A DNA stretch of 64,000 bases from Candidatus Blackburnbacteria bacterium (lineage in GTDB: Bacteria; Patescibacteriota; Microgenomatia; UBA8517; UBA10165). The stretch is from assembly GCA_016183565.1 (NCBI GenBank), contig JACPEJ010000001.1, positions 293,241 to 357,240 of the forward strand, given 5' to 3'. The first letter of the stretch is position 1, and every line of letters begins with the position of its first letter. The translations under genes were made by a program, and so were the position numbers. Of the stretch, positions 14-49,737 are shown one piece after another. Below the pieces are notes generated by a model. That model was not told the origin of the DNA and ran no database searches. It saw only the letters and a list, made by a program, of their open reading frames with translations.

Positions 14-50
14 TTTCCACATCGGGAGTGGAACAGGTTTGCACATCGGG
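14..50. repeat. 37-nt direct repeat, copy A (tttccacatcgggagtggaaCaggtttgcacatcggg); 36/37 identical to 1740..1776
   Basis: Compared the two stretches directly: one C/T mismatch. On the minus strand the repeat encodes MCKP[V/I]PLPMWK plus leader, i.e. the start of an ORF running off the left window edge. Confidence 0.8.
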
Positions 51-1783: not shown

Positions 1784-1854
1784 TTCCGGGACAGGGAGTT
1801 GAACCCCAATTTCCGCTTCCAGAGAGCGGCGTCCGACCATTAGACGATCCCGGA
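1784..1854 (-). tRNA. tRNA-Gln (anticodon CTG)
   Basis: Reverse complement folds as a cloverleaf. Acceptor TCCGGGA/TCCCGGA; D stem GTCT/GGAC; anticodon stem CCGCT/AGCGG with loop CTCTGGA (U33, CTG, G37); T loop TTCAACT; T stem has two G-U pairs. Plus strand is GC-rich in an AT-rich region. Confidence 0.7.
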
Positions 1855-29790: not shown

Positions 29791-30648
29791 GTGAGAATGC
29801 TGAAACTTTTTAGGGCGACAATAATAAGTGGAATATTATTTTTTTTGATGGTTTCTCCTGCTTTTGCTGCTTTCGCCATCAGCGGTGTACCTGCAAGTAT
29901 AACTTCTGAGCAGGAGTTCCAGGTTACGGTTTCACTATCCATTAGCGGTTCTGCTGGTAACGTCTACTACTTGAGAGCTGCCTTTGCTCATCTGGACACC
30001 CCGAGTTCATATTTTGGTTACACAAAGGATAATGTCGGTGCTTGGTACAATGGAACACCATCGATCGATCACACAAAGTTTTACCAAGTTACAATGGACT
30101 CTTCAGGAACTTGGAATGGAACTGTTTCAGTTAAACCGGATTCACAAAGTTCTGCTTTCAAAGGTTCTGGAGATTATACACTTAAGGTGGGGAGGTATAC
30201 GGCGGCAGGTAGTGGTCCAACTTGGTCTGATGATTCGGTAACCATAACGATCTCTGCACCACCCACTTCTACTCCTACACCAACATCTACCCCGACGCCT
30301 ACTTCCGGGCCTACGTCAACTCCTACTCCGACTAATACTCCCACCCCTACGATGGGAAGTTTGGCGACTCCGACGCCTACTCGGGTGCCTACGAAAAAAC
30401 CGACTCCTACTCCGACTAAAGAATCCGTTGAGGAAGAGGACGGAGAAGTCTTTGTACTTGGTGCTCAAGACGTAAGTGCTTCTGTGACATCTACGCCGGA
30501 AGTAGTGGTTGAGGCGACAACTTCTGCGCAAGGAAAGAATTGGAAAACTCCTGTGTTTGCTGGTGTTTTGATAGTTGCTGGTGTTTCTCTTATTGGAATT
30601 TCTGCTTATTCCTTCCTTGCGAAGGGTAAAACTGGTAGAATTATGTGA
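29791..30648 (+). CDS. Secreted/cell-surface protein with signal peptide, Pro/Thr-rich repeat linker and C-terminal TM anchor
   Basis: Signal peptide ending PAFAAFA. (PTxTPT)n linker encoded by imperfect 18-nt repeats. C-terminal hydrophobic helix plus KGKTGR. Confidence 0.55.
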   Translation: MRMLKLFRATIISGILFFLMVSPAFAAFAISGVPASITSEQEFQVTVSLSISGSAGNVYYLRAAFAHLDTPSSYFGYTKDNVGAWYNGTPSIDHTKFYQVTMDSSGTWNGTVSVKPDSQSSAFKGSGDYTLKVGRYTAAGSGPTWSDDSVTITISAPPTSTPTPTSTPTPTSGPTSTPTPTNTPTPTMGSLATPTPTRVPTKKPTPTPTKESVEEEDGEVFVLGAQDVSASVTSTPEVVVEATTSAQGKNWKTPVFAGVLIVAGVSLIGISAYSFLAKGKTGRIM

Positions 30649-31061
30649 GTATGAAGCATGTGGTGTATTGGGTGCCGGTTTTTGTTTGGGCCGGCGTTAT
30701 TTTTTTCTTTTCATCTTTGCAGGTGGAGATTTCTCCTGAGTTTGATTTGCAAGATTTTTTGGTTAAGAAGACTGCTCACATTATTGAATATGCAATTCTT
30801 TTTACACTTATCTATAGAGCTTTAATCAATGCGGCTGGTTTTACTGTTAGCAAGTCATTCAAGGTTGCATTTATACTTATTTTTCTTTATGCAATAAGTG
30901 ATGAGTATCATCAATCGTTTACTCCAGGGAGAACTCCAAGCATACGAGATGTTGGTTTTGACAGTTCAGGGGCTGTTCTTGCGTGGATAGGATTATGGAA
31001 GTATTTACCAAAAGCGCCCAAGAAACTTTTGAGTTGGGCAAGAACTTTGCAGCTTCTTTAA
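30645..31061 (+). CDS. VanZ-family membrane protein
   Basis: 138 aa; conserved DEYHQSFTPGR and D.GFD..G motifs of the VanZ-like family. Confidence 0.6.
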   Translation: MSMKHVVYWVPVFVWAGVIFFFSSLQVEISPEFDLQDFLVKKTAHIIEYAILFTLIYRALINAAGFTVSKSFKVAFILIFLYAISDEYHQSFTPGRTPSIRDVGFDSSGAVLAWIGLWKYLPKAPKKLLSWARTLQLL

Positions 31062-31459
31062 AAGGCGGGGAGGTAGTAGCTCTTGTGGGAGATTTAGGGA
31101 GCGGTAAGACTACATTTGTTCAAGGTCTTGCTCGTGGTTTAGGAATAAAAGAGAGAATTTTGAGCCCCACTTTTATTTTGATGCGCCAGTACGATATAAA
31201 AACCAAAAATCAAAACAAAAATGCTTCCTTCGGAAGGGCAAAACTTAAAAATTTGTACCATATTGACTTGTACCGATTGGTTGGGAATATTGAGCAAGAA
31301 TATAGAAGTCTTGGGTTGGAAGAAATTGTAGGGGAGAAGGAAAATATAGTTGTGATTGAGTGGGCGGAGAAGGTGAGGGGGTTGCTGCCTGCTGATACGA
31401 TTTGGATTAGGTTTGGGATTGTGGGTGAGGATGGCAGAAAGATTATTATTAAGCGATAA
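30983..31459 (+). CDS. tsaE: tRNA t6A37 threonylcarbamoyl-adenosine biosynthesis ATPase TsaE (YjeE) with about 14-aa inserted segment
   Basis: Walker A GDLGSGKTTF, SPTFILM, LYHIDLYRL motifs. Inserted segment DIKTKNQNKNASFGRAKLKN is encoded by the repeat element 31197..31254. Confidence 0.8.
   Translation: MDRIMEVFTKSAQETFELGKNFAASLKGGEVVALVGDLGSGKTTFVQGLARGLGIKERILSPTFILMRQYDIKTKNQNKNASFGRAKLKNLYHIDLYRLVGNIEQEYRSLGLEEIVGEKENIVVIEWAEKVRGLLPADTIWIRFGIVGEDGRKIIIKR
31197..31254. repeat. Repeat element copy 1: 22-nt hairpin core TGCTTCCTTCGGAAGGGCAAAA flanked by degenerate CAAAA(A)T heptamers, inside tsaE
   Basis: Core 31222..31243 is identical to 38519..38540. Stem CTTCC/GGAAG. Confidence 0.7.
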
Positions 31460-34334: not shown

Positions 34335-35291
34335 ATGCGACTTGTGATAGTTATTCCCACTTATAACGAGAAAGAGAATATAGTAAACCTTTTGCACAGG
34401 ATCAATTTAACTTTTCGTGATATACGCGGTTGGACGTTGCGGGTTTTGATTGTTGATGACAATTCTCCTGATGGAACTGCGGATGCTGTGAGAGATGTTA
34501 TGAGACGTAATAGAAAAGTGTTTTTGTTATCTCGGAGTAAAAAAACTGGTTTAGGAGGGGCATACTTTTCGGGTATGGAAAGGGCGTTTAAGGAGATGGG
34601 TGCTGATGTAGTTGGGATAATGGACGCTGATTTATCGCACAACCCTGCCTATATTCCCGCTTTCTTAGGGAAGATACAGAGAGGATATGAGTTTGTGGTT
34701 GGGGCTCGGTATGTTCGAGGGGGTTCGATTCCTTCTGATTGGCCGTTATATCGGAAATTTCTTTCGGTATTTGGTAATACTATGGTTTCGGTTTTTCTTG
34801 GTAAGACTACACTAACTGATTGGACGTCCGGATATCGCTTTTTTAATAAAGACGTGTATGTGAAGGTGAGGCCTGAGATAATTGAAGATCGTGCGGAGTA
34901 TAGGGGGTATACGTTTAACATTTCTTTTGCGTATCATGCTGTGAGTGAGGGTTTTAAGATTGGCCAGGTTCCTATTAAGTTTTCCGATAGGAAAAAGGGG
35001 AAATCGAAACTTGGGTTGGAGTATCTTTTCCACACCCCTATTTTTTTATTGAAGACTCGACTTTCTATATTGAGAAAAGGTATAGTGAAAAGATCGAGAG
35101 TTGTAATTAGAGTTTGTTCCAGAACTCAATCTGTGGGGCCTGTCGGGAGCTCGTCCTCGGCCCGTATATCCTCGTCCGCCAGCTGGCGGACTGCGGGCGC
35201 TCGGCGGGACTCCTCGTTCGAGTCTGAGCCTGAGGGCTCATCCCTCAGAGTCGAAGACCTCCGCTCCCGACACCCACTTAGAAATTTTTAG
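34335..35291 (+). CDS. GT2 polyprenol-phosphate mannose/glucose synthase (DPM1/Ppm1-like), 3' end replaced by a GC-rich element; probably truncated
   Basis: VIVIPTYNEKENI...VDDNSPDGT...DAD motifs. Collinear with 35293..36519 to about residue 255, then a low-complexity Ser/Arg/Ala tail encoded by the GC-rich element. Lacks the paralog's GtrA-like TM domain. Confidence 0.75.
   Translation: MRLVIVIPTYNEKENIVNLLHRINLTFRDIRGWTLRVLIVDDNSPDGTADAVRDVMRRNRKVFLLSRSKKTGLGGAYFSGMERAFKEMGADVVGIMDADLSHNPAYIPAFLGKIQRGYEFVVGARYVRGGSIPSDWPLYRKFLSVFGNTMVSVFLGKTTLTDWTSGYRFFNKDVYVKVRPEIIEDRAEYRGYTFNISFAYHAVSEGFKIGQVPIKFSDRKKGKSKLGLEYLFHTPIFLLKTRLSILRKGIVKRSRVVIRVCSRTQSVGPVGSSSSARISSSASWRTAGARRDSSFESEPEGSSLRVEDLRSRHPLRNF
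35133..35278. other. GC-rich (~65%) palindrome-dense structured element; candidate ncRNA or small inserted element
   Basis: 10-bp closing helix TGTCGGGAGC (35141..35150) / GCTCCCGACA (35263..35272). Internal hairpins: perfect 16-nt palindrome TCCGCCAGCTGGCGGA (35175..35190), GACTC/GAGTC (35208..35224), CTGAGGG/CCCTCAG (35230..35248). Translation in the host ORF frame is low-complexity. Confidence 0.45.
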
Positions 35292-35292
35292 T

Positions 35293-36519
35293 ATGAAAAT
35301 TGTTGTTATTATTCCAACTTACAATGAGCGAGAAAATATTGGCCGGATGCTTGATATTTTGGTGAAAGATGAATTTTCCAAGATTAAAAACCATAAGATG
35401 GAGGTGTTGGTAGTTGATGGTCAATCCCCTGATGGTACCTCGGAGGTAGTTAATGAGAAGATGAAGAAATATAAGCAGGTTAATCTTCTTTTGACTAATA
35501 AGGGTGGTTTGGGTGCTGATTATGCGAAGGGAATGAAATATGCTATTGAGAAAATGAAAGCGGATGCGGTGTTTGAGTTTGATGCGGATTTTCAGCATGA
35601 CCCAGGGGATATAAAGCGGTTAGTTGCGGCAATGGATCTTGGTGCTGATTATGTTATTGGATCTCGGTATATTCCCGGGGGGGCAATACCGAAAGAGTGG
35701 GGGATGCATAGAAAGTTCTTAAGTTTTTTTGGAAGTCTTTTTGCGCGAGTAGTTCTTCTTATGCTTAATGTTCATGATATGACTTCTGGTTTTAAGTTAA
35801 CCAAGACTGAGTTTTTGAAGAAGGTGGATTTGGATCATTTGTTGTCAAGGTATTATGCGTACAAGATTCATATATTGCACGATGTAGTGAAACTTGGGGC
35901 CAAGATTGTGGAGGTGCCGATTGTTTTTTACGAAAGGAAAGAAGGTTCAAGCAAGATAAGTCGGAAGGATTTGTTTGACTCTTTTCGTGTGGTGATTTTG
36001 TTGAGGCTGCGTGATTCTAAACGTTTTATCAAGTTTGGCATAGTTGGGACGGTCGGTTATATGTTGAATGCTCTTGGGTTAGAGTTTTTCTCTGGGGTGA
36101 AGGTTACCCAGGATTTGGCAAATTTCTTTCTTGAGTGGAAGGGAAGTTGGCCTCTTAGTATAGCTTCTGAGCCTTCGGCTTGGGCGGCGGCTTTTGCCGC
36201 GGAGGTAGCTATATTGTCTAATTTTATCCTGAACAATTATTGGACGTTTGCTTCTAAGAGAATTACAAATCCTTTGCGTTTCCTTTGGAAGTTTAGCCAT
36301 TTTAATTTGACGTCGGCGGGTGCTGTTGTGATACAGTTTTTGGTTGTTGGTTTAGCTGTTAGTTTGTTTGGTGACACTCCACTTGTGCGTCAGCTTTCTT
36401 TGGTTGTTGCAGTAGGGGTGTTTATCGTTCCGTATAACTATACGATGTACAATGTTTTTATCTGGAAAACATGGAAAGTTCCAGGGCTTCGGTGGCTACA
36501 GAATCGCAGAGTGGATTAG
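35293..36519 (+). CDS. GT2 polyprenol-phosphate mannose synthase (Ppm1-like) with C-terminal GtrA-like TM domain
   Basis: 408 aa. VVIIPTYNERENI...VVDGQSPDGT...DADFQHDP GT2 core plus 4 C-terminal TMs. Tandem paralog of 34335. Confidence 0.8.
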   Translation: MKIVVIIPTYNERENIGRMLDILVKDEFSKIKNHKMEVLVVDGQSPDGTSEVVNEKMKKYKQVNLLLTNKGGLGADYAKGMKYAIEKMKADAVFEFDADFQHDPGDIKRLVAAMDLGADYVIGSRYIPGGAIPKEWGMHRKFLSFFGSLFARVVLLMLNVHDMTSGFKLTKTEFLKKVDLDHLLSRYYAYKIHILHDVVKLGAKIVEVPIVFYERKEGSSKISRKDLFDSFRVVILLRLRDSKRFIKFGIVGTVGYMLNALGLEFFSGVKVTQDLANFFLEWKGSWPLSIASEPSAWAAAFAAEVAILSNFILNNYWTFASKRITNPLRFLWKFSHFNLTSAGAVVIQFLVVGLAVSLFGDTPLVRQLSLVVAVGVFIVPYNYTMYNVFIWKTWKVPGLRWLQNRRVD

Positions 36520-37771: not shown

Positions 37772-38515
37772 ATGGCTCAGAAACTTACGTTGAGTGTTAT
37801 TTTGCCTGTTTATAATGAGGAGAAGGATGTACCTAGAAATGTTCCTATTCTCTATAAGTATCTGAAAGAGAATTTTACTCAATATTCTTGGGAACTTATC
37901 ATTGCTGATAATGGTCCTTCTAAAGATAGAACTCCGGAAATCTCGAAAGAACTAACTAAGAACTATAGGAGTTTGTTTTATATTTGTATTCCACGGCCAG
38001 GGCGTGGGGGTGCGTTAAAAGAAGTTTGGCAAAAGCGAAAAAGTGACTACCTTTGCTATATGGATGTTGATTTGTCTTCAGATCTTTCCTTTTTGTCTCA
38101 ACTTATTTCCTTTCTAGAGAATGGTGCTGATATTGCTATCGGTTCACGTCTTAAGAGGGGGGCTAAGGTGTATGGTCGGACACTCTTACGTGAGATAATG
38201 TCCAGAGGCTATAATATCTTGATCCGAACCTTCTTTTGGACAAGCTTCTGCGATGCTCAGTGTGGATTCAAAGCGATTAGAAAAGAAGCAGCGATGAAGC
38301 TTTTACCGTATGTGGAGGATAAAGGTTGGTTTTTTGATTCAGAACTTTTGATAACTGGCGAGAAAGCGGGGTTTAAAATTAAAGAAGTTCCTATAGTTTG
38401 GCGTGATGATCCTGCTTCAACTGTTAAGGTTGCAAAAACTGCTTGGGGGGATATTAAGGGACTAGCAAGGCTTTTTATCACCAGGCCATGGAAAAAAATT
38501 CAAAATTCAAAATAA
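37772..38515 (+). CDS. GT2 glycosyltransferase (DPM/DPG-synthase-like); last 7 codons and stop lie in heptamer repeats
   Basis: ILPVYNEEKD...IIADNGPSKD...DVDLS motifs. C-terminus ...PWKKIQNSK* is encoded by AAAATTC repeats. Confidence 0.85.
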   Translation: MAQKLTLSVILPVYNEEKDVPRNVPILYKYLKENFTQYSWELIIADNGPSKDRTPEISKELTKNYRSLFYICIPRPGRGGALKEVWQKRKSDYLCYMDVDLSSDLSFLSQLISFLENGADIAIGSRLKRGAKVYGRTLLREIMSRGYNILIRTFFWTSFCDAQCGFKAIRKEAAMKLLPYVEDKGWFFDSELLITGEKAGFKIKEVPIVWRDDPASTVKVAKTAWGDIKGLARLFITRPWKKIQNSK

Positions 38516-40074
38516 AATTGCTTCCTTCGGAAGGGCAAAATTCAAAATTAAAATTCAAAATTCAAAATTTTCAGAAGTGGATGTCAACAAACAGATATGA
38601 ATTTGCTCTTCTAGTTTTTATCCTCATTCTGGCCACCCTTTTTAGACTTTGGAGAATAGATGAGTACTTGCCATTTTTAGGTGACGAGGGGCGAGACGTA
38701 AGGGTAGTAAGACGTTTTGTGACGGATTTTGATTTGATGTTTATAGGGCCGAGAACTTCGATTGGTGATATGTACCTTGGCCCCTTGTTTTACTATCTTA
38801 TTGCCCCTGGGCTTTTGTTTGCTAATTTCTCACCAGCTGGCCCAGCTACCACTGTAGCACTTTTTGGTGTTGCAACGGTTTTTTTGATTTGGCGGGTTGC
38901 TCGCGAATGGTTTGGTAGGGAAGCTGCAATTATTTCATCTTTTCTTTTTGCGATTTCTCCCTTGGTGGTAAATCTATCGAAGCATTCCTGGAATCCGAAC
39001 ATCATGCCCTTTTTTGCTCTTTTGTCAGTTTATAGTATTTGGAGGGTGTGGAGTAAAGGAGAGTATCTGTGGTTTTTAGTACTTGGAGGAGCGTACGCTT
39101 TTGTTCTTCAGTCTCACTATCTGGGTTTGCTTCTGGGACCTGTGTTAGGGCTGTCGGGGTTGTTAGGGTGGTTGGGAGCAAGAAGGGCACGCACAACAAA
39201 AAGTTTTCTTGTTTTCTTGTTTTCAGGTTCCTTAGTTTTTATCGTTTTAATGTCCCCTTTGTTTATTTTTGATTCCAAGCATGGTTGGCATAATACGCAG
39301 GCTATAGCCACTTTTTTTACCAAGAGACAAGAAACTGTTTCTGTCAAGCCGTGGAATGCTGTACCTCTAACATGGCCTATTTGGAAAGATAAGGTTGTTA
39401 ATGATCTTTTGACAGCTGGTAATCAAAACCTGGCTTTATATGTAGCGTTAGGTTTGTTGCTTGCTTGTCTTTGTGTGTTTCTCGAAAGCAGGAGAAAGCT
39501 TTCCTCTCTTGTACCTTTTGGTCTGACTGTTTTTTGGATATTAGTGGGTCTTTTGGGTTTGGGGTCTCTTAAACAAAATGTTTATAGCCATTATTTTGGA
39601 TTTATGTTTCCGGCGGTATTTCTTTTGATTGGGGCTATTACCGGGTTTTTTTGGAAAGGCAGGACGAGATGGGTGGTTGTACTTGCTATAGCTGTGTTGA
39701 TAACGATCAACTTACAAAAAAATCCCCTTTTCCTGCCTCCCCAGAGGCAGATGCAGAGAGTTCAAGAAATTGATAAAAAAATTCTCAAAGAAGCGGATAG
39801 CGAGCCCTTTAATTTTGCTTTAATTGCTAAGAGAAATTATGAGGAAGGTTATCTTTATTTCTTTGAATTATGGAATTCGCCGGTTCGGGAAATCAACGCT
39901 CAGAATACTCGTGATACTTTAACTGAGCAACTTTTTGTTGTTTGCGAAGACCCTGTTTGTGAGCCGATTAATAATGCTAAAGCTGAAATTGCGAATTTTG
40001 GTTGGGCGAAAATAGAAAGTGAAGAGCAAATTGGGGGTGTAAAATTGTACAAACTAGTTCACACAAAACAATGA
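38488..40074 (+). CDS. GT-C glycosyltransferase, GT39/ArnT-like
   Basis: FLGDEGRD...IGP.TSIGD...GPLFYYLIAPG motif and 11+ TMs. The ATG at 38488 adds a Lys-rich 31-aa leader from the repeat element; the native start may be the Met at ~38581 (MSTNRYEF...). Confidence 0.75.
   Translation: MEKNSKFKIKLLPSEGQNSKLKFKIQNFQKWMSTNRYEFALLVFILILATLFRLWRIDEYLPFLGDEGRDVRVVRRFVTDFDLMFIGPRTSIGDMYLGPLFYYLIAPGLLFANFSPAGPATTVALFGVATVFLIWRVAREWFGREAAIISSFLFAISPLVVNLSKHSWNPNIMPFFALLSVYSIWRVWSKGEYLWFLVLGGAYAFVLQSHYLGLLLGPVLGLSGLLGWLGARRARTTKSFLVFLFSGSLVFIVLMSPLFIFDSKHGWHNTQAIATFFTKRQETVSVKPWNAVPLTWPIWKDKVVNDLLTAGNQNLALYVALGLLLACLCVFLESRRKLSSLVPFGLTVFWILVGLLGLGSLKQNVYSHYFGFMFPAVFLLIGAITGFFWKGRTRWVVVLAIAVLITINLQKNPLFLPPQRQMQRVQEIDKKILKEADSEPFNFALIAKRNYEEGYLYFFELWNSPVREINAQNTRDTLTEQLFVVCEDPVCEPINNAKAEIANFGWAKIESEEQIGGVKLYKLVHTKQ
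38494..38572. repeat. Repeat element copy 2: AAAATTC-type heptamer repeats on both sides of the hairpin core TGCTTCCTTCGGAAGGGCAAAA (38519..38540)
   Basis: Seen in sequence. Spans the stop of GT2 37772..38515 and the first ~28 codons of ORF 38488..40074. Confidence 0.75.
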
Positions 40075-47247: not shown

Positions 47248-48099
47248 TTAGGTAATGATGAAAATGTCTTGTTTTGAGTCACTTGTTCCTATGAATTCTC
47301 CTCCTCTACGATAGACTATCTCGAAGGGTTGGCATACGAAACAACCCACCTCTCCTTTTGGACACTTAAAACTTTGAAGTTGTCTTGCGAGTTTCATCCT
47401 TTTTGCAGTTTCGAGGACTTTTTCGTAGGCTTCGCTTGCATTGGGTAATCCAACTTCTTTTGGTGTGTTTTCTCGATCTAGGTACCAGTAACTTGCTTTG
47501 CTGACTTTTCTTTTTTGGAGGTTTGTTGCAAGGAGAAGATAGATGGGTAGTTGTAGAGAGTTTTCATCTTCGTCATGCTTCCCAGTTTTGAAGTCAACAA
47601 CATGGACGCTATCCTCTTCTTGTAGATATTCTAACCAATCGATTTTTCCACAAAGGATGATATTGTCTTTTTCCGATAGTAAGTAGTGTGGAGGGAGCCC
47701 TGAATCTTGTTTAATCTTTATGGCTTTATTGAGGAGCATACCGGGGTTTTCTAAAACTCTTTTTATCATACCCTTACCTCTTTCTTTGTACTCTGACTCC
47801 TCGTTCTCGTTTTTAAACCCTCCCGCTTTTCCTGAGATTTTACTCCACACTTCCTCAAATTGGTTGTGAAGCGATCTGTTAAGTCGCTGTTGGGCAGGTA
47901 GAACTGATAAGGATTCCAGTACGTCATGAACTGCTTGGCCTAAAGCCAGAGGTGGTTGCATTATGCTTATTCGATTGCCTGTTTTTGGGTTTTTGTAAAC
48001 GTGAGCAAGATAGTAGGCGCGCGGACACTGAAGGAACTTTACGATTGATGAGTGCGATACCCAGACAGTAGAATAGGGGTCCCGATTCACAAGCCTCAA
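47248..48099 (-). CDS. Cas4-like / RecB-family PD-(D/E)XK nuclease with 4-Cys (Fe-S) cluster, stand-alone
   Basis: N-terminal Cys in VKFLQCPRAYYL. Motifs IDWLEY and VVDFKTGK (D...D/ExK). QLPIYLLL (QhxxY). C-terminal CPKGEVGCFVC. No CRISPR array nearby. Confidence 0.6.
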   Translation of the reverse strand: MRLVNRDPYSTVWVSHSSIVKFLQCPRAYYLAHVYKNPKTGNRISIMQPPLALGQAVHDVLESLSVLPAQQRLNRSLHNQFEEVWSKISGKAGGFKNENEESEYKERGKGMIKRVLENPGMLLNKAIKIKQDSGLPPHYLLSEKDNIILCGKIDWLEYLQEEDSVHVVDFKTGKHDEDENSLQLPIYLLLATNLQKRKVSKASYWYLDRENTPKEVGLPNASEAYEKVLETAKRMKLARQLQSFKCPKGEVGCFVCQPFEIVYRRGGEFIGTSDSKQDIFIIT

Positions 48100-48250
48100 T
48101 TTACTCTTGGATTAATCAACCGTCAATTGGGTCAAACTGGGTCTTTTTAGTGCATTGACTGGGTGGTTTTAGACCGTTCGGGGAGTAAACAGGTAGACTA
48201 GAACCCCGAGGGCTAATACAACTCGTTTCAAAACTTGTAGATTAGTCTTA

Positions 48251-48451
48251 TTAGATTTTTTGAAACGAGATTGGAGAATTGGTTCTGATTATCATGATTG
48301 GTATTTCATTGTCTGATGTAATCACGACCGGTCTATCGAGCCCAGGCCTGTCATATATTAGATGGTCCCCTTTTGTTCTTTTTAATTTACACCCGATAAA
48401 CTTAAGAAACTTTTCAAATTTTCTTCTTTTGATTGGGGACAGCTGAGGCAT
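48251..48451 (-). CDS. hicA: HicA-family type II toxin (mRNA interferase)
   Basis: FLKFIGCKLKRTKGDHLIYDRPG...PVVIT resembles the HicA KGSHxxY core. 1-nt gap from the upstream hicB-like gene. Confidence 0.65.
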   Translation of the reverse strand: MPQLSPIKRRKFEKFLKFIGCKLKRTKGDHLIYDRPGLDRPVVITSDNEIPIMIIRTNSPISFQKI

Positions 48452-48452
48452 T

Positions 48453-48743
48453 TCAACAAGTTGGGTGGATTGTAAAATCTTGAGTTGCGCTTTCTACTAC
48501 GATTGGAGGGACCCACTCTTTCCTCTGTTTTTGCCAGCCTAGTTCAGACAGGACTTTATTGAGAGTACCCTTTTCTGATAACTCCTCGAGAAATACTTCG
48601 ACAACTTCTGCAAATCTTTTTTTCGCCTGGCCGAATGTTTTTCCTGAAGTGGCAAGATCCAGAGCTGGTGTATAGGCAACATAGTGTTTGCCTTCCTTAA
48701 GGACTAGAACGTGCAGAGAGATGTTGTAGTTTAACTGTGGCAT
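48453..48743 (-). CDS. hicB: HicB-family antitoxin (UPF0150 RNase-H-like fold)
   Basis: VLKEGKHYVAYTPALDLATSGKTFGQAKKRFAEVVEVFLEEL matches the HicB N-domain pattern. TTATACT -10 just upstream. Confidence 0.65.
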   Translation of the reverse strand: MPQLNYNISLHVLVLKEGKHYVAYTPALDLATSGKTFGQAKKRFAEVVEVFLEELSEKGTLNKVLSELGWQKQRKEWVPPIVVESATQDFTIHPTC

Positions 48744-48927
48744 GGTGAGTTTAGTATAACACTGGTTTGTAAGGATTGCATTTTTATCGTACCTGGAACC
48801 CTAATTTAAACCTTTTCCACATGTCTTCGGAGACTACGGAGACCTCCTCGCCGTCTACCCTAATTGCGTCTTGATCGTCGGGAGCATAGAAAGTTAAGGG
48901 TTGGGTTAGAATTTGGTAAGTACGTGG

Positions 48928-49737
48928 CTAATTTTTCTTTTGAAGATTTATCTTAAGCTGGTTAAGCCTTTTTATAGATAGGTCTAGATATTTTTGATTT
49001 ACGTCAATTCCTACAAACTTTCTGCCGTAAAGGTATGCTTCAAGGCCTGTGGTTGAGCTGCCGGTAAAAGGATCAAGGACGAGATCGCCTTGAAGGGTCG
49101 ATGCAAGAATGATTCTTCGCAAAAGTGCTGTGGGTTTTTGAGTTGGGTGTTTTCCAAATTTTTGCTCTTCTGGTCTAACGGAGTTTATTGCCCAAACACT
49201 TCTCATTTGCTCTCCAGGACTTTTTAGAAAATCTTCATTCCAGTTTGCATCTTTTACATATTTGTAATTGAATCTGTGTTTGGCGTTTTTATTTTTCTTT
49301 GCCCAGATGAGGGTTTCGTGGCTTGCTGTAAAAAACCTTTGACTTAAGTTGTAAGGAGCATTGGGTTTATACCACACAATTTCATTTAGTATGTGGAACC
49401 CTAGTTTTTGGAGCGCAAAGCCACAGGTGTGGATTGAGTGATAAGTGCCGCTTACCCAGATAGTGCCGTTGGGCTTTAAAACTCTTTGGCATTCCTTGAG
49501 CCAGGTCCGGTGGAATTCGAAATCTTTCTCTAGTCCTTGGCTCTTGTCCCATCCTCCCTTGTTGACAATTGTTTTGTGTCCAGAGTAAACACTAAATCCG
49601 TTATTTGATAGTCTATATGGAGGATCGACAAAGATAAGATCGAATTGTTCTCCAGTAAAATGGGGTAGTAGTTTTATGCAATCGCCAAGATAGAGTTTGA
49701 AGTTGTTGTTTTCAAAGTATGCTTTTGGCATGCTCAA
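48928..49737 (-). CDS. Beta-class DNA methyltransferase (N6-adenine or N4-cytosine), orphan
   Basis: Motif IV FVDPPY precedes motif I DPFTGSSTTG (beta-class order). ParB-less MTase_D12/N6_N4 family. Confidence 0.85.
   Translation of the reverse strand: MSMPKAYFENNNFKLYLGDCIKLLPHFTGEQFDLIFVDPPYRLSNNGFSVYSGHKTIVNKGGWDKSQGLEKDFEFHRTWLKECQRVLKPNGTIWVSGTYHSIHTCGFALQKLGFHILNEIVWYKPNAPYNLSQRFFTASHETLIWAKKNKNAKHRFNYKYVKDANWNEDFLKSPGEQMRSVWAINSVRPEEQKFGKHPTQKPTALLRRIILASTLQGDLVLDPFTGSSTTGLEAYLYGRKFVGIDVNQKYLDLSIKRLNQLKINLQKKN

What the first reader, a model, noticed from the sequence alone, without database searches (positions are those of the whole stretch)
35133..35278. GC-rich multi-hairpin element replacing the 3' end of a DPM-synthase gene; candidate structured ncRNA or small mobile insertion
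In a ~40% GC region, this 146-nt block is ~65% GC and almost entirely palindromic. A 10-bp long-range helix (TGTCGGGAGC / GCTCCCGACA) encloses three hairpins, one of them a perfect 16-nt palindrome TCCGCCAGCTGGCGGA. ORF 34335..35291 is collinear with its tandem paralog 35293..36519 up to ~residue 255. It then reads through this element as a Ser/Arg/Ala low-complexity tail instead of the paralog's GtrA-like TM domain. That suggests the element inserted into, or replaced, the gene's 3' part. Short motifs from it (GTCGGGAGC, AGACCTCC) recur in the GC-rich spacer 48838..48885 between hicB and the orphan methyltransferase, hinting at a dispersed family. It does not match SRP, RNase P, tmRNA or tRNA features I can recognise.
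Basis: seen in the sequence. Interest (0 to 1): 0.65.

Follow-up and report, generated by a model that had tools for sequence, protein, structure and literature searches.

The report
Orphan GC-rich palindromic insert between genes
A 145-base, GC-rich, strongly self-pairing stretch of DNA has been inserted exactly between two neighbouring sugar-transferase genes in one uncultured groundwater bacterium; no other copy was found, so it is most likely a stray piece of selfish or foreign DNA, not a new RNA gene.

Summary
The sequence observation holds. Window 35133-35277 is the most GC-rich 100-nt stretch of the 64 kb (0.71 against a mean of 0.40). It folds into a 15-bp interrupted terminal helix enclosing three hairpins (-82 kcal/mol, z = -5).

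The interpretation needs correcting. Orthologs of ORF 34335-35291 in four Blackburnbacteria lineages are all about 250 aa and never carry a GtrA domain. The order GT2 followed by GT2-GtrA is ancestral. In relatives the two genes overlap (ATGA) or lie 8-31 nt apart. So the element is a lineage-specific insertion at the stop/start junction, not a replacement of a 3' domain. The 64-aa tail is read-through that ends 1 nt before the ORF2 ATG.

No second copy was found in the window, 185,579 species genomes, JGI metagenomes, IMG/VR, phages or plasmids. A six-frame peptide search against 5.8 billion proteins found only the source protein. There is no Rfam match. The motifs at 48.8 kb are chance matches.

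Both strands fold equally well, which fits a DNA-level palindrome. No target-site duplication is present.

Best reading: a solo MITE/RPE-like or captured foreign palindromic module. A functional RNA cannot be tested without homologs. Interest is low.

The parts
35133..35277 (.). The GC-rich palindromic element itself (145 bp, 68% GC). The composition boundary coincides with the ends of the terminal inverted repeat.
   Evidence: GC outlier; fold, z about -5 on both strands and in the larger context.
35133..35150 (.). Left terminal inverted repeat / 5' arm of the closing helix: GTGGG-(GCC bulge)-TGTCGGGAGC.
   Evidence: helices 35133-37/35273-77 (5 bp) and 35141-50/35263-72 (10 bp), all Watson-Crick.
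35263..35277 (.). Right terminal inverted repeat / 3' arm of the closing helix: GCTCCCGACA-CCCAC.
35153..35159 (.). Inner helix P2, 5' arm (GTCCTCG). It pairs with 35252-35258 (CGAAGAC). There is one C-A mismatch on the + strand, which becomes a G-U pair on the - strand.
35160..35198 (.). Hairpin 1: a 5-7 bp basal stem, an AU-rich internal loop (UAUAUCCUC), and the 18-nt perfect palindrome GTCCGCCAGCTGGCGGAC (35174-35191, contains CAGCTG).
35199..35223 (.). Hairpin 2. This is the weakest hairpin: it has 3 G-U pairs on the + strand and an alternative pairing on the - strand.
35228..35251 (.). Hairpin 3: CTGAGGG-CTCAT-CCCTCAG (core 35230-35248).
34335..35291 (+). ORF1, a GT2 polyprenol-phosphate mannose synthase-like gene. 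The catalytic part is conserved to about 35096 (residue about 254). Residues 255-318 are a read-through tail across the insert. The stop TAG is at 35289-35291.
   Evidence: orthologs 243-260 aa; all invariant residues are kept in the window protein; two of three + frames are open across the insert, and an open frame arises by chance with P about 0.13.
35088..35132 (+). Left flank. AAAAGATCGA is where relatives have ...AAAAGATGA (ORF1 stop overlapping or abutting the ORF2 start). About 38 nt follow that may be a decayed duplicate of the ORF2 5' end.
   Evidence: alignments; p = 0.03 against the window's own ORF2 and 0.09-0.45 against relatives, so only suggestive.
35278..35292 (+). AT-rich 15-nt spacer TTAGAAATTTTTAGT between the element and the ORF2 ATG. 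It contains the ORF1 stop and no Shine-Dalgarno-like motif.
   Evidence: Relatives carry GGAGG/AAGG 10-17 nt upstream of the ORF2 start.
35293..36519 (+). ORF2, a GT2 + GtrA/DPMS-TM fusion protein. It is intact at 408 aa (406-415 aa in relatives).

Best explanation
A discrete 145-bp palindromic DNA module of foreign base composition was inserted, in this lineage only, at the stop/start junction of two tandem glycosyltransferase genes. It has 15-bp interrupted terminal inverted repeats that begin TG and end CA at the 10-bp core. It has no coding capacity of its own.

The most likely source is a non-autonomous (MITE-like) element moved in trans by a transposase. Capture of an already discrete palindromic unit is the close alternative.

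Shown:
- The insertion removed the ancestral ATGA/short-spacer junction.
- ORF1 lost its stop, reads through the GC-rich insert (which has few stop codons) and ends at a TAG 1 nt before the ORF2 ATG. It thereby gains a non-conserved 64-aa Ser/Arg/Ala tail.

Inferred:
- The new ORF2 start has no Shine-Dalgarno motif and sits 15 nt behind a -82 kcal/mol structure. ORF2 is therefore probably expressed by termination-reinitiation from ribosomes that translate, and unwind, the insert. This would make the open frame tolerated or favoured.
- The element itself has no dedicated cellular function.
For: - Insertion: four lineages with the same gene order have ORF1-ORF2 spacing of -4, +8, +25 and +31 nt. 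The window has about 200 nt.
- Ortholog length: orthologs end at residue about 254 and none has the tail.
- Foreign and discrete: GC is 0.68-0.71 against 0.40, and the composition step coincides with the ends of the inverted repeat.
- DNA-level symmetry: minimum free energy is -82.0 (+) against -82.5 (-) kcal/mol. 49 of 54 pairs (+) and 49 of 50 pairs (-) are Watson-Crick. The 18-nt palindrome is perfect through its centre.
- Not coding: there is no period-3 GC signal. A six-frame peptide search against 5.8e9 proteins returns only the source protein. The open frame is not significant (P about 0.13).
- Not a known RNA.
- Not an artefact of the MAG (metagenome-assembled genome) assembler alone: an independent Logan contig (SRR12113424) carries the last 33 nt of the element (window 35245-35277) joined to ORF2.
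- Size, terminal inverted repeats and stable transcript structure fit the MITE description in PMC10969869. In-frame palindromic inserts of about 150 bp are known as RPEs (same source).
Against: - No target-site duplication. The best is a 4-nt AGAA at shifted boundaries, which is chance level.
- Only one copy in 64 kb.
- No copy with these repeat ends elsewhere. There were 23 hits in 185,579 species genomes, 27 in JGI metagenomes and 1 in IMG/VR, and all are chance matches without inner similarity.
- MITEs are typically AT-rich and multi-copy, and this element is neither.
- No transposase among the 10 ORFs sampled in the window.
- The rest of the 686-kb genome could not be searched.
Confidence: 0.45

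Rival explanations
1. Captured foreign DNA without mobility of its own. A short fragment from a high-GC organism (for example an intergenic palindrome or terminator cluster) was taken up and integrated by illegitimate recombination or repair at a junction that is prone to rearrangement. It now sits there as neutral filler.
For: - Single copy and no target-site duplication.
- Un-ameliorated high GC.
- The same junction was rearranged independently in another lineage: L004/L005 have a 17-nt direct repeat (15/17 identical) flanking 18 new nt. It is also a scaffold gap in L003.
- There is a marginal hint of a duplicated ORF2 5' end on the left flank.
Against: - The inverted repeats lie exactly at the two ends of the GC-rich block. 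This is unexpected for a random fragment.
- No donor sequence was found. Plasmids gave only E >= 0.2 hits and phages gave none. An exact 24-mer is absent from JGI metagenomes.
Confidence: 0.25
2. Functional structured RNA. A four-way-junction RNA sits in the operon transcript and acts in cis as a leader, processing or stability element for ORF2 (RNase III site, riboswitch-like sensor), or is released as a small RNA.
For: - Fold z = -5, stable in the larger context.
- GC-rich island in an AT-rich genome, a classic ncRNA signature.
- Weak promoter-like site TCGACT-18-TATAGT at 35057-35086, just upstream.
- Hairpin 2 uses G-U pairs only on the + strand.
Against: - No Rfam match even at E<=10.
- No homolog anywhere, so no covariation can be tested.
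- Absent from all four related lineages at this locus.
- The two strands fold equally well.
- No terminator-like end.
- It lies inside a translated frame.
Confidence: 0.12
3. Assembly or sequencing artefact. A chimeric or mis-joined stretch was introduced into the MAG at a repeat-prone junction.
For: - Singleton with foreign composition.
- A Logan contig from the same project stops inside the element, at window 35245.
- The exact ORF1 protein is not on record in the contig index.
- Another Logan contig of this population ends in a Nextera adapter.
Against: - The right 33 nt of the element (window 35245-35277) are joined to ORF2 identically in an independent assembly.
- Both junctions are clean, inside a 686-kb contig.
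- The insert leaves ORF1 open and ends it 1 nt before the ORF2 ATG.
Confidence: 0.07
4. Genuine protein-coding C-terminal extension of the mannose synthase (a disordered Ser/Arg-rich tail with a function).
For: The frame is open for 64 codons and is annotated this way in NCBI (MBI2268164.1).
Against: - No ortholog has the tail.
- No similar peptide among 5.8e9 proteins.
- No codon periodicity.
- The open frame is expected by chance at P about 0.13, and a second frame is open too.
Confidence: 0.03

Closest known systems
Prokaryotic MITEs (for example Correia/CREE of Neisseria, ERIC, QMITE of Coxiella)
   Same: - Under 500 bp, with terminal inverted repeats inside the 4-30 bp range.
- No coding capacity.
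- The transcript folds into a very stable stem-loop structure.
- It sits at a gene boundary where it can alter expression or create gene fusions (PMC10969869).
   Different: - Single copy in 64 kb, and no relatives in any collection searched.
- No flanking direct repeat.
- GC-rich in an AT-rich genome, whereas MITEs are usually AT-rich.
- No cognate transposase seen.
Rickettsia palindromic elements (RPEs)
   Same: - Palindromic inserts of about 150 bp that stay in frame with a host ORF and add a peptide segment to an otherwise intact enzyme (PMC10969869).
   Different: - RPEs form families with many copies per genome and a conserved peptide, and are usually internal to the protein.
- Here there is one copy and no related peptide.
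- The insert is at the extreme 3' end, where it replaces the stop codon.
REP/BIME elements mobilised by RAYT transposases, and IS200/IS605-derived palindromic elements
   Same: - GC-rich extragenic palindromes between convergent or co-transcribed genes.
- They act at the DNA hairpin level and can stabilise upstream mRNA (my own knowledge of these families).
   Different: - REPs are 20-40 nt units present in tens to hundreds of copies.
- No repeat family and no Y1 transposase were detected here.
GC-rich structured ncRNAs found in AT-rich genomes by the GC / intergenic-region approach
   Same: - A compositional island with a significant predicted fold.
   Different: - Those candidates are accepted only with conservation and covariation. 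Here there is no homolog and no Rfam match.

Membership tests
MITE | Length under 500 bp and no transposase gene inside | tested here: met
   145 bp. The only internal ORF is a 44-aa antisense frame with no homolog.
MITE | Terminal inverted repeats of about 4-30 bp at the element ends | tested here: met
   5 + 10 bp perfect inverted repeat with a 3-nt bulge, exactly at the edges of the GC-rich block.
MITE | Flanking direct repeats (target-site duplication), at least in young copies | tested here: not met
   The best exact flanking repeat over 340 boundary combinations is 4 nt (AGAA), which is about what chance gives. A longer degenerate duplication of the ORF2 5' end is only marginal (p = 0.03).
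MITE | Multiple related copies in the genome (a family) | tested here: inconclusive
   None in the 64-kb window, species genomes, metagenomes or viral contigs. The remaining 622 kb or so of the source contig could not be read.
MITE | AT-rich composition and insertion into AT-rich intergenic DNA | tested here: not met
   The element is 68% GC. The target site itself is AT-rich.
Rickettsia palindromic element (RPE)-type in-frame insert | Palindromic insert of about 100-150 bp that keeps the host ORF open | tested here: met
   ORF1 stays open through the whole insert, although this is not statistically unusual.
Rickettsia palindromic element (RPE)-type in-frame insert | Family of copies encoding a conserved peptide in many unrelated genes | tested here: not met
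   The concatenated six-frame translation finds only the source protein among 5.8e9 proteins.
Any Rfam RNA family (riboswitches, ribozymes, SRP, 6S, RNase P, tmRNA, group II domains and others) | Covariance-model score at the gathering threshold, or at least E<=10 | tested here: not met
   No hit on the element in the whole-window gathering scan, or in the 601-nt scan at E<=10. ARAGORN finds no tRNA or tmRNA.
Intrinsic terminator | GC-rich hairpin immediately followed by a U-run | tested here: not met
   No terminator-like site at the element on either strand. The T5 run lies 8 nt after the closing helix.
Diversity-generating retroelement variable region | A near-identical template repeat and a reverse transcriptase nearby | tested here: not met
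   No second copy in 64 kb.
REP/BIME | Short (20-40 nt) imperfect palindromes in many copies, with a RAYT gene | tested here: not met
   No repeated palindrome family in the window. No Y1 transposase among the sampled ORFs. A genome-wide check was not possible.

The most novel reading that the evidence does not exclude
The element is a horizontally acquired, so far family-less structured RNA: a four-way junction closed by a 15-bp helix. It would act as a cis-regulatory leader or processing module for the GtrA-fused mannose synthase gene in a CPR (Candidate Phyla Radiation) bacterium. That would make it a new RNA class seen here in its only sequenced instance.
Probability: 0.08. Interest if true: 0.55.

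Novelty: new member of a known kind. Interest (0 to 1): 0.22.

Why it matters
If it is a mobile palindromic element, it would be a rare example of such an element in the very small, repeat-poor genome of a CPR bacterium. It would also show how such an insert can be absorbed at an overlapping stop/start junction: the upstream gene is extended across the insert so that translational coupling to the downstream gene is kept.

On present evidence it is a one-off. It does not open a general question. Its main practical value is as an annotation caveat: the 318-aa 'mannose synthase' MBI2268164.1 carries a 64-aa non-homologous tail.

Tried and rejected
- Known RNA families: Rfam at gathering score on the whole window and at E<=10 on 601 nt gave nothing on the element. 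No tRNA or tmRNA.
- Second copy in the window: the repeat finder, motif searches with mismatches and blastn-short gave none.
- The 48.8-kb 'copy': chance motifs in an unstructured spacer.
- Family search by terminal repeats (TGTCGGGAGC N97-127 GCTCCCGACA): 1 viral, 23 genome and 27 metagenome hits. All lie in mostly high-GC DNA, and inner similarity is at the shuffle level.
- Exact sub-patterns: the left 18-mer and 24-mer, the hairpin 1 + hairpin 3 combination and the hairpin 3 23-mer gave zero hits. The 18-nt palindrome alone hit two viral contigs with no flanking similarity.
- BLAST against phages and plasmids: nothing below E = 0.2.
- Coding origin: six-frame peptides found only the source protein, and there is no period-3 GC signal.
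- Target-site duplication, and the idea that the L004 18-nt spacer is an excision footprint: not significant.
- Left flank as a duplicate of the ORF2 5' end: marginal only.
- GC-rich spot in relative L034 (1180-1280): ordinary coding sequence, z = +0.4.
- Hammerhead-like and attC-like motifs were checked by eye and are absent.
- Exact-protein look-ups to recover the source contig's left junction failed. The contigs found end in trmD or inside the element.
- Literature searches for CPR palindromic elements or MITEs found nothing relevant.

Full report
**1. The observation**

The block is real.
- Window 35133-35278 is 68% GC in a window averaging 40.2% (sd 5.4% for 100-nt windows). The single highest 100-nt GC value of the 64 kb (0.71) starts at 35131.
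- As RNA, 35120-35290 folds to -82.3 kcal/mol, z = -5.1, with none of 200 dinucleotide shuffles as stable. The reverse strand gives -84.4 kcal/mol, z = -4.9. DNA parameters give z = -4.7. The same structure appears when 311 nt are folded.

The anatomy is as follows.
- A closing helix of 5 + 10 Watson-Crick pairs: GTGGG-(GCC)-TGTCGGGAGC at 35133-35150 with GCTCCCGACA-CCCAC at 35263-35277.
- A short inner helix: 35153-59 with 35252-58.
- Three hairpins: 35160-98, 35199-223 and 35228-51. Hairpin 1 carries an 18-nt perfect palindrome, GTCCGCCAGCTGGCGGAC.

ORF1 (34335-35291) and ORF2 (35293-36519) are paralogs, 38% identical and collinear to ORF1 residue 251. ORF1 has only a GT2 domain. ORF2 has GT2 plus GtrA/DPMS-TM.

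**2.

The motifs said to recur at 48838-48885 are a 9-mer and an 8-mer in a different order.
- Matches to the 10-mer with one mismatch are at chance level.
- blastn-short of the element against the rest of the window finds nothing better than E = 0.58, and nothing at 48.8 kb.
- That spacer has no structure (z = +0.24).

The element also did not replace a GtrA domain.
- The source is a Candidatus Blackburnbacteria MAG (protein MBI2268164.1, contig 686,250 bp).
- Apart from that identical protein, the roughly 80 best homologs (52-62% identity) are 243-260 aa. They cover 76-80% of the query and end at '...RLKxLxxGxVKx', which is query residue about 254.
- GtrA-fused homologs appear only lower in the list and are orthologs of ORF2.
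- All residues invariant in the family are kept in the window protein, so the enzyme part looks intact.

**3. It is an insertion at a stop/start junction**

Syntenic loci from four lineages carry trmD(-), GT2 (243-260 aa), GT2-GtrA (406-415 aa) and the 388-aa membrane protein(-) in the same order. L034-37 even share the upstream CAP, 87-aa and RNaseH-like genes. The ORF1-ORF2 distances are:

| Locus | Distance |
|---|---|
| L001 | -4 nt (ATGA overlap) |
| L030-33 | +8 nt |
| L034-37 | +25 nt |
| L004/L005 | +31 nt |

Alignment of the junctions shows the following.
- The window matches relatives up to ...GGTATAGTGAAAAGAT. Relatives then continue with GA (ATGA) and the ORF2 codons.
- The window instead has CGAGAG..., about 38 nt of AT-rich sequence, the 145-bp GC-rich block, 15 nt (TTAGAAATTTTTAGT) and only then ATGAAAATTGTTGTT, the ORF2 start. 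About 200 nt are therefore extra.
- The 38-nt left flank may be a decayed duplicate of the ORF2 5' end. The evidence is marginal: p = 0.03 against the window's own ORF2 and 0.09-0.45 against relatives, and not significant with a stricter score.

The same junction was rearranged independently in the L004/L005 lineage.
- A 17-nt direct repeat (15/17 identical) flanks 18 new nt. This creates a 12-codon mini-ORF that again overlaps both genes through ATGA.
- In L003 the junction is a 100-N scaffold gap.
- The L004 spacer is not similar to the window's flanks, so I treat these as separate events at a fragile site.

**4. The tail is a by-product**

- The ancestral TGA is gone (ATGA has become ATCGA). 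ORF1 runs through the insert to TAG 35289-35291, 1 nt before the ORF2 ATG.
- Two of the three + frames are open across the insert.
- Shuffles of the 192 nt stay open in a given frame 12.8% of the time.
- There is no period-3 GC signal: 0.61, 0.69 and 0.75 for the three phases.
- A concatenated six-frame translation finds only the source protein among 5.8 billion proteins.
- Inference: relatives have GGAGG or AAGG 10-17 nt upstream of the ORF2 start, inside the 3' end of ORF1. The new start has no such motif and lies 15 nt behind a very stable structure. Termination-reinitiation by ribosomes that have translated the insert is therefore the most plausible way ORF2 is still expressed.

**5. Search for relatives of the element**

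- Rfam gives nothing at gathering score (only two tRNAs elsewhere), and nothing on the element at E<=10 in a 601-nt scan. No tRNA or tmRNA is found.
- The terminal-repeat pattern gave 1 hit in IMG/VR, 23 in 185,579 species genomes and 27 in JGI metagenomes. Most lie in 55-74% GC DNA. Inner alignment scores are at the shuffle level: local scores up to 16, against a null mean of 11 and maximum of 18.
- Exact 18-, 23- and 24-mers and a two-hairpin pattern gave no hits.
- The 18-nt palindrome alone occurs in two viral contigs with no flanking similarity.
- Phage and plasmid BLAST gave nothing below E = 0.2.
- The source genome itself is not in the genome collection, because the pattern did not find it. 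The other 622 kb or so of the contig remain unsearched.

**6. Independent support for the sequence**

The same population is present in Logan assemblies of SRR12113383, SRR12113385, SRR12113424 and SRR12113430.
- One 26.9-kb contig starts at window position 35245, inside hairpin 3. It then reads identically through the right repeat, the spacer and ORF2. The right junction is therefore not an invention of the MAG assembler.
- Why the contig stops inside the element is unknown. Low coverage of a GC-rich hairpin, a polymorphism or a repeat are all possible.
- The contigs found on the left side end in trmD, so the left junction has no independent support.

**7. Interpretation**

- The GC step coincides exactly with the ends of a 15-bp inverted repeat. 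The inserted unit is therefore discrete and defined by its termini, as for a transposon-derived miniature element. A closing RNA helix would look the same.
- The two strands fold equally well, and 49 of 54 (+) and 49 of 50 (-) pairs are Watson-Crick. The main palindrome is perfect through its centre. This pattern is more typical of DNA-level symmetry or a young insert than of an evolved RNA.
- Against membership in the MITE class as described in PMC10969869: no target-site duplication, no second copy, GC-rich rather than AT-rich, and no transposase in the ORFs sampled.
- The closest functional analogy is the Rickettsia palindromic elements, which are palindromes of about 150 bp that persist in frame inside genes. 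Those form families with conserved peptides, and this element does not.
- I therefore describe it as MITE/RPE-like in architecture and consequence, not as a demonstrated member of either.

My estimates for each reading are:

| Reading | Probability |
|---|---|
| MITE-like mobile element | about 0.45 |
| Captured foreign fragment | about 0.25 |
| Functional RNA | about 0.12 |
| Assembly artefact | about 0.07 |
| True coding extension | about 0.03 |

That it is a lineage-specific insertion and not a domain replacement I hold at about 0.9.

**8. Verdict**

This is a real and clean sequence feature, correctly spotted. It is a singleton with no homologs, no known family and no testable covariation. 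It is a mild curiosity and an annotation caveat, not a discovery. Interest 0.22.

Noticed in passing
L069:1-50 (= window 35245-35295); also L067: A 26.9-kb Logan contig of the same population (SRR12113424) begins inside hairpin 3 of the element. The gene caller therefore extended ORF2 to 423 aa. The cause of the break is unknown: low coverage, polymorphism or a repeat are possible. It could be a clue to copy number.
   Followed up: partly
L004:3780-3831 and L005 (same coordinates); L003:3797-3896: In another Blackburnbacteria lineage the same ORF1/ORF2 junction carries a 17-nt direct repeat (ATGAATATTGTTGTGAT / ATGAAAATTGTTGTTAT) around 18 new nt. This forms a 12-codon mini-ORF whose start and stop both overlap the neighbouring genes as ATGA. 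In a third assembly the spot is a 100-N gap. The junction looks like a rearrangement hotspot.
   Followed up: partly
window 35057-35086, and the GGTATAGT motif at 35079-35086: A promoter-like TCGACT-18-TATAGT lies inside the 3' end of ORF1. The (G/T)GTATAGT motif is kept in three lineages, including L034 where it is non-coding. It lies 8-17 nt upstream of the ORF2 start. It could be an internal promoter for a near-leaderless ORF2 transcript, or part of the ribosome-binding region.
   Followed up: no
window 14-50 and 1740-1776: A 37-nt direct repeat, 97% identical (TTTCCACATCGGGAGTGGAA(C/T)AGGTTTGCACATCGGG). The second copy lies 8 nt from the tRNA gene at 1784-1854 (-).
   Followed up: no
window 31198-31250 and 38495-38547: A 53-nt repeat, 87% identical, containing a CTTCC-TTCG-GGAAG hairpin. 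One copy lies at the 5' end of the PMT_2-type glycosyltransferase ORF 38488-40074. The other lies in ORF 30983-31459. It is either a shared N-terminal peptide or a shared 5' RNA hairpin.
   Followed up: no
window 30241-30411: A degenerate repeat with 12-nt periodicity, encoding a Pro/Thr-rich linker inside ORF 29791-30648. It is the second most GC-rich spot of the window.
   Followed up: no
window 47248-49737 (- strand): A cluster of a PD-(D/E)XK/Cas4-like nuclease (47248-48099), two small HicA/HicB-like ORFs (48251-48451, 48453-48743) and an N6/N4 DNA methylase with no adjacent restriction enzyme (48928-49737). It is a small defence or mobile-looking island inside the glycosylation gene region.
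   Followed up: partly
L068:2955-2973: A Logan contig of this population ends in the Nextera/Tn5 mosaic-end adapter AGATGTGTATAAGAGACAG, fused to ORF2 sequence. This is adapter contamination in that public assembly.
   Followed up: no
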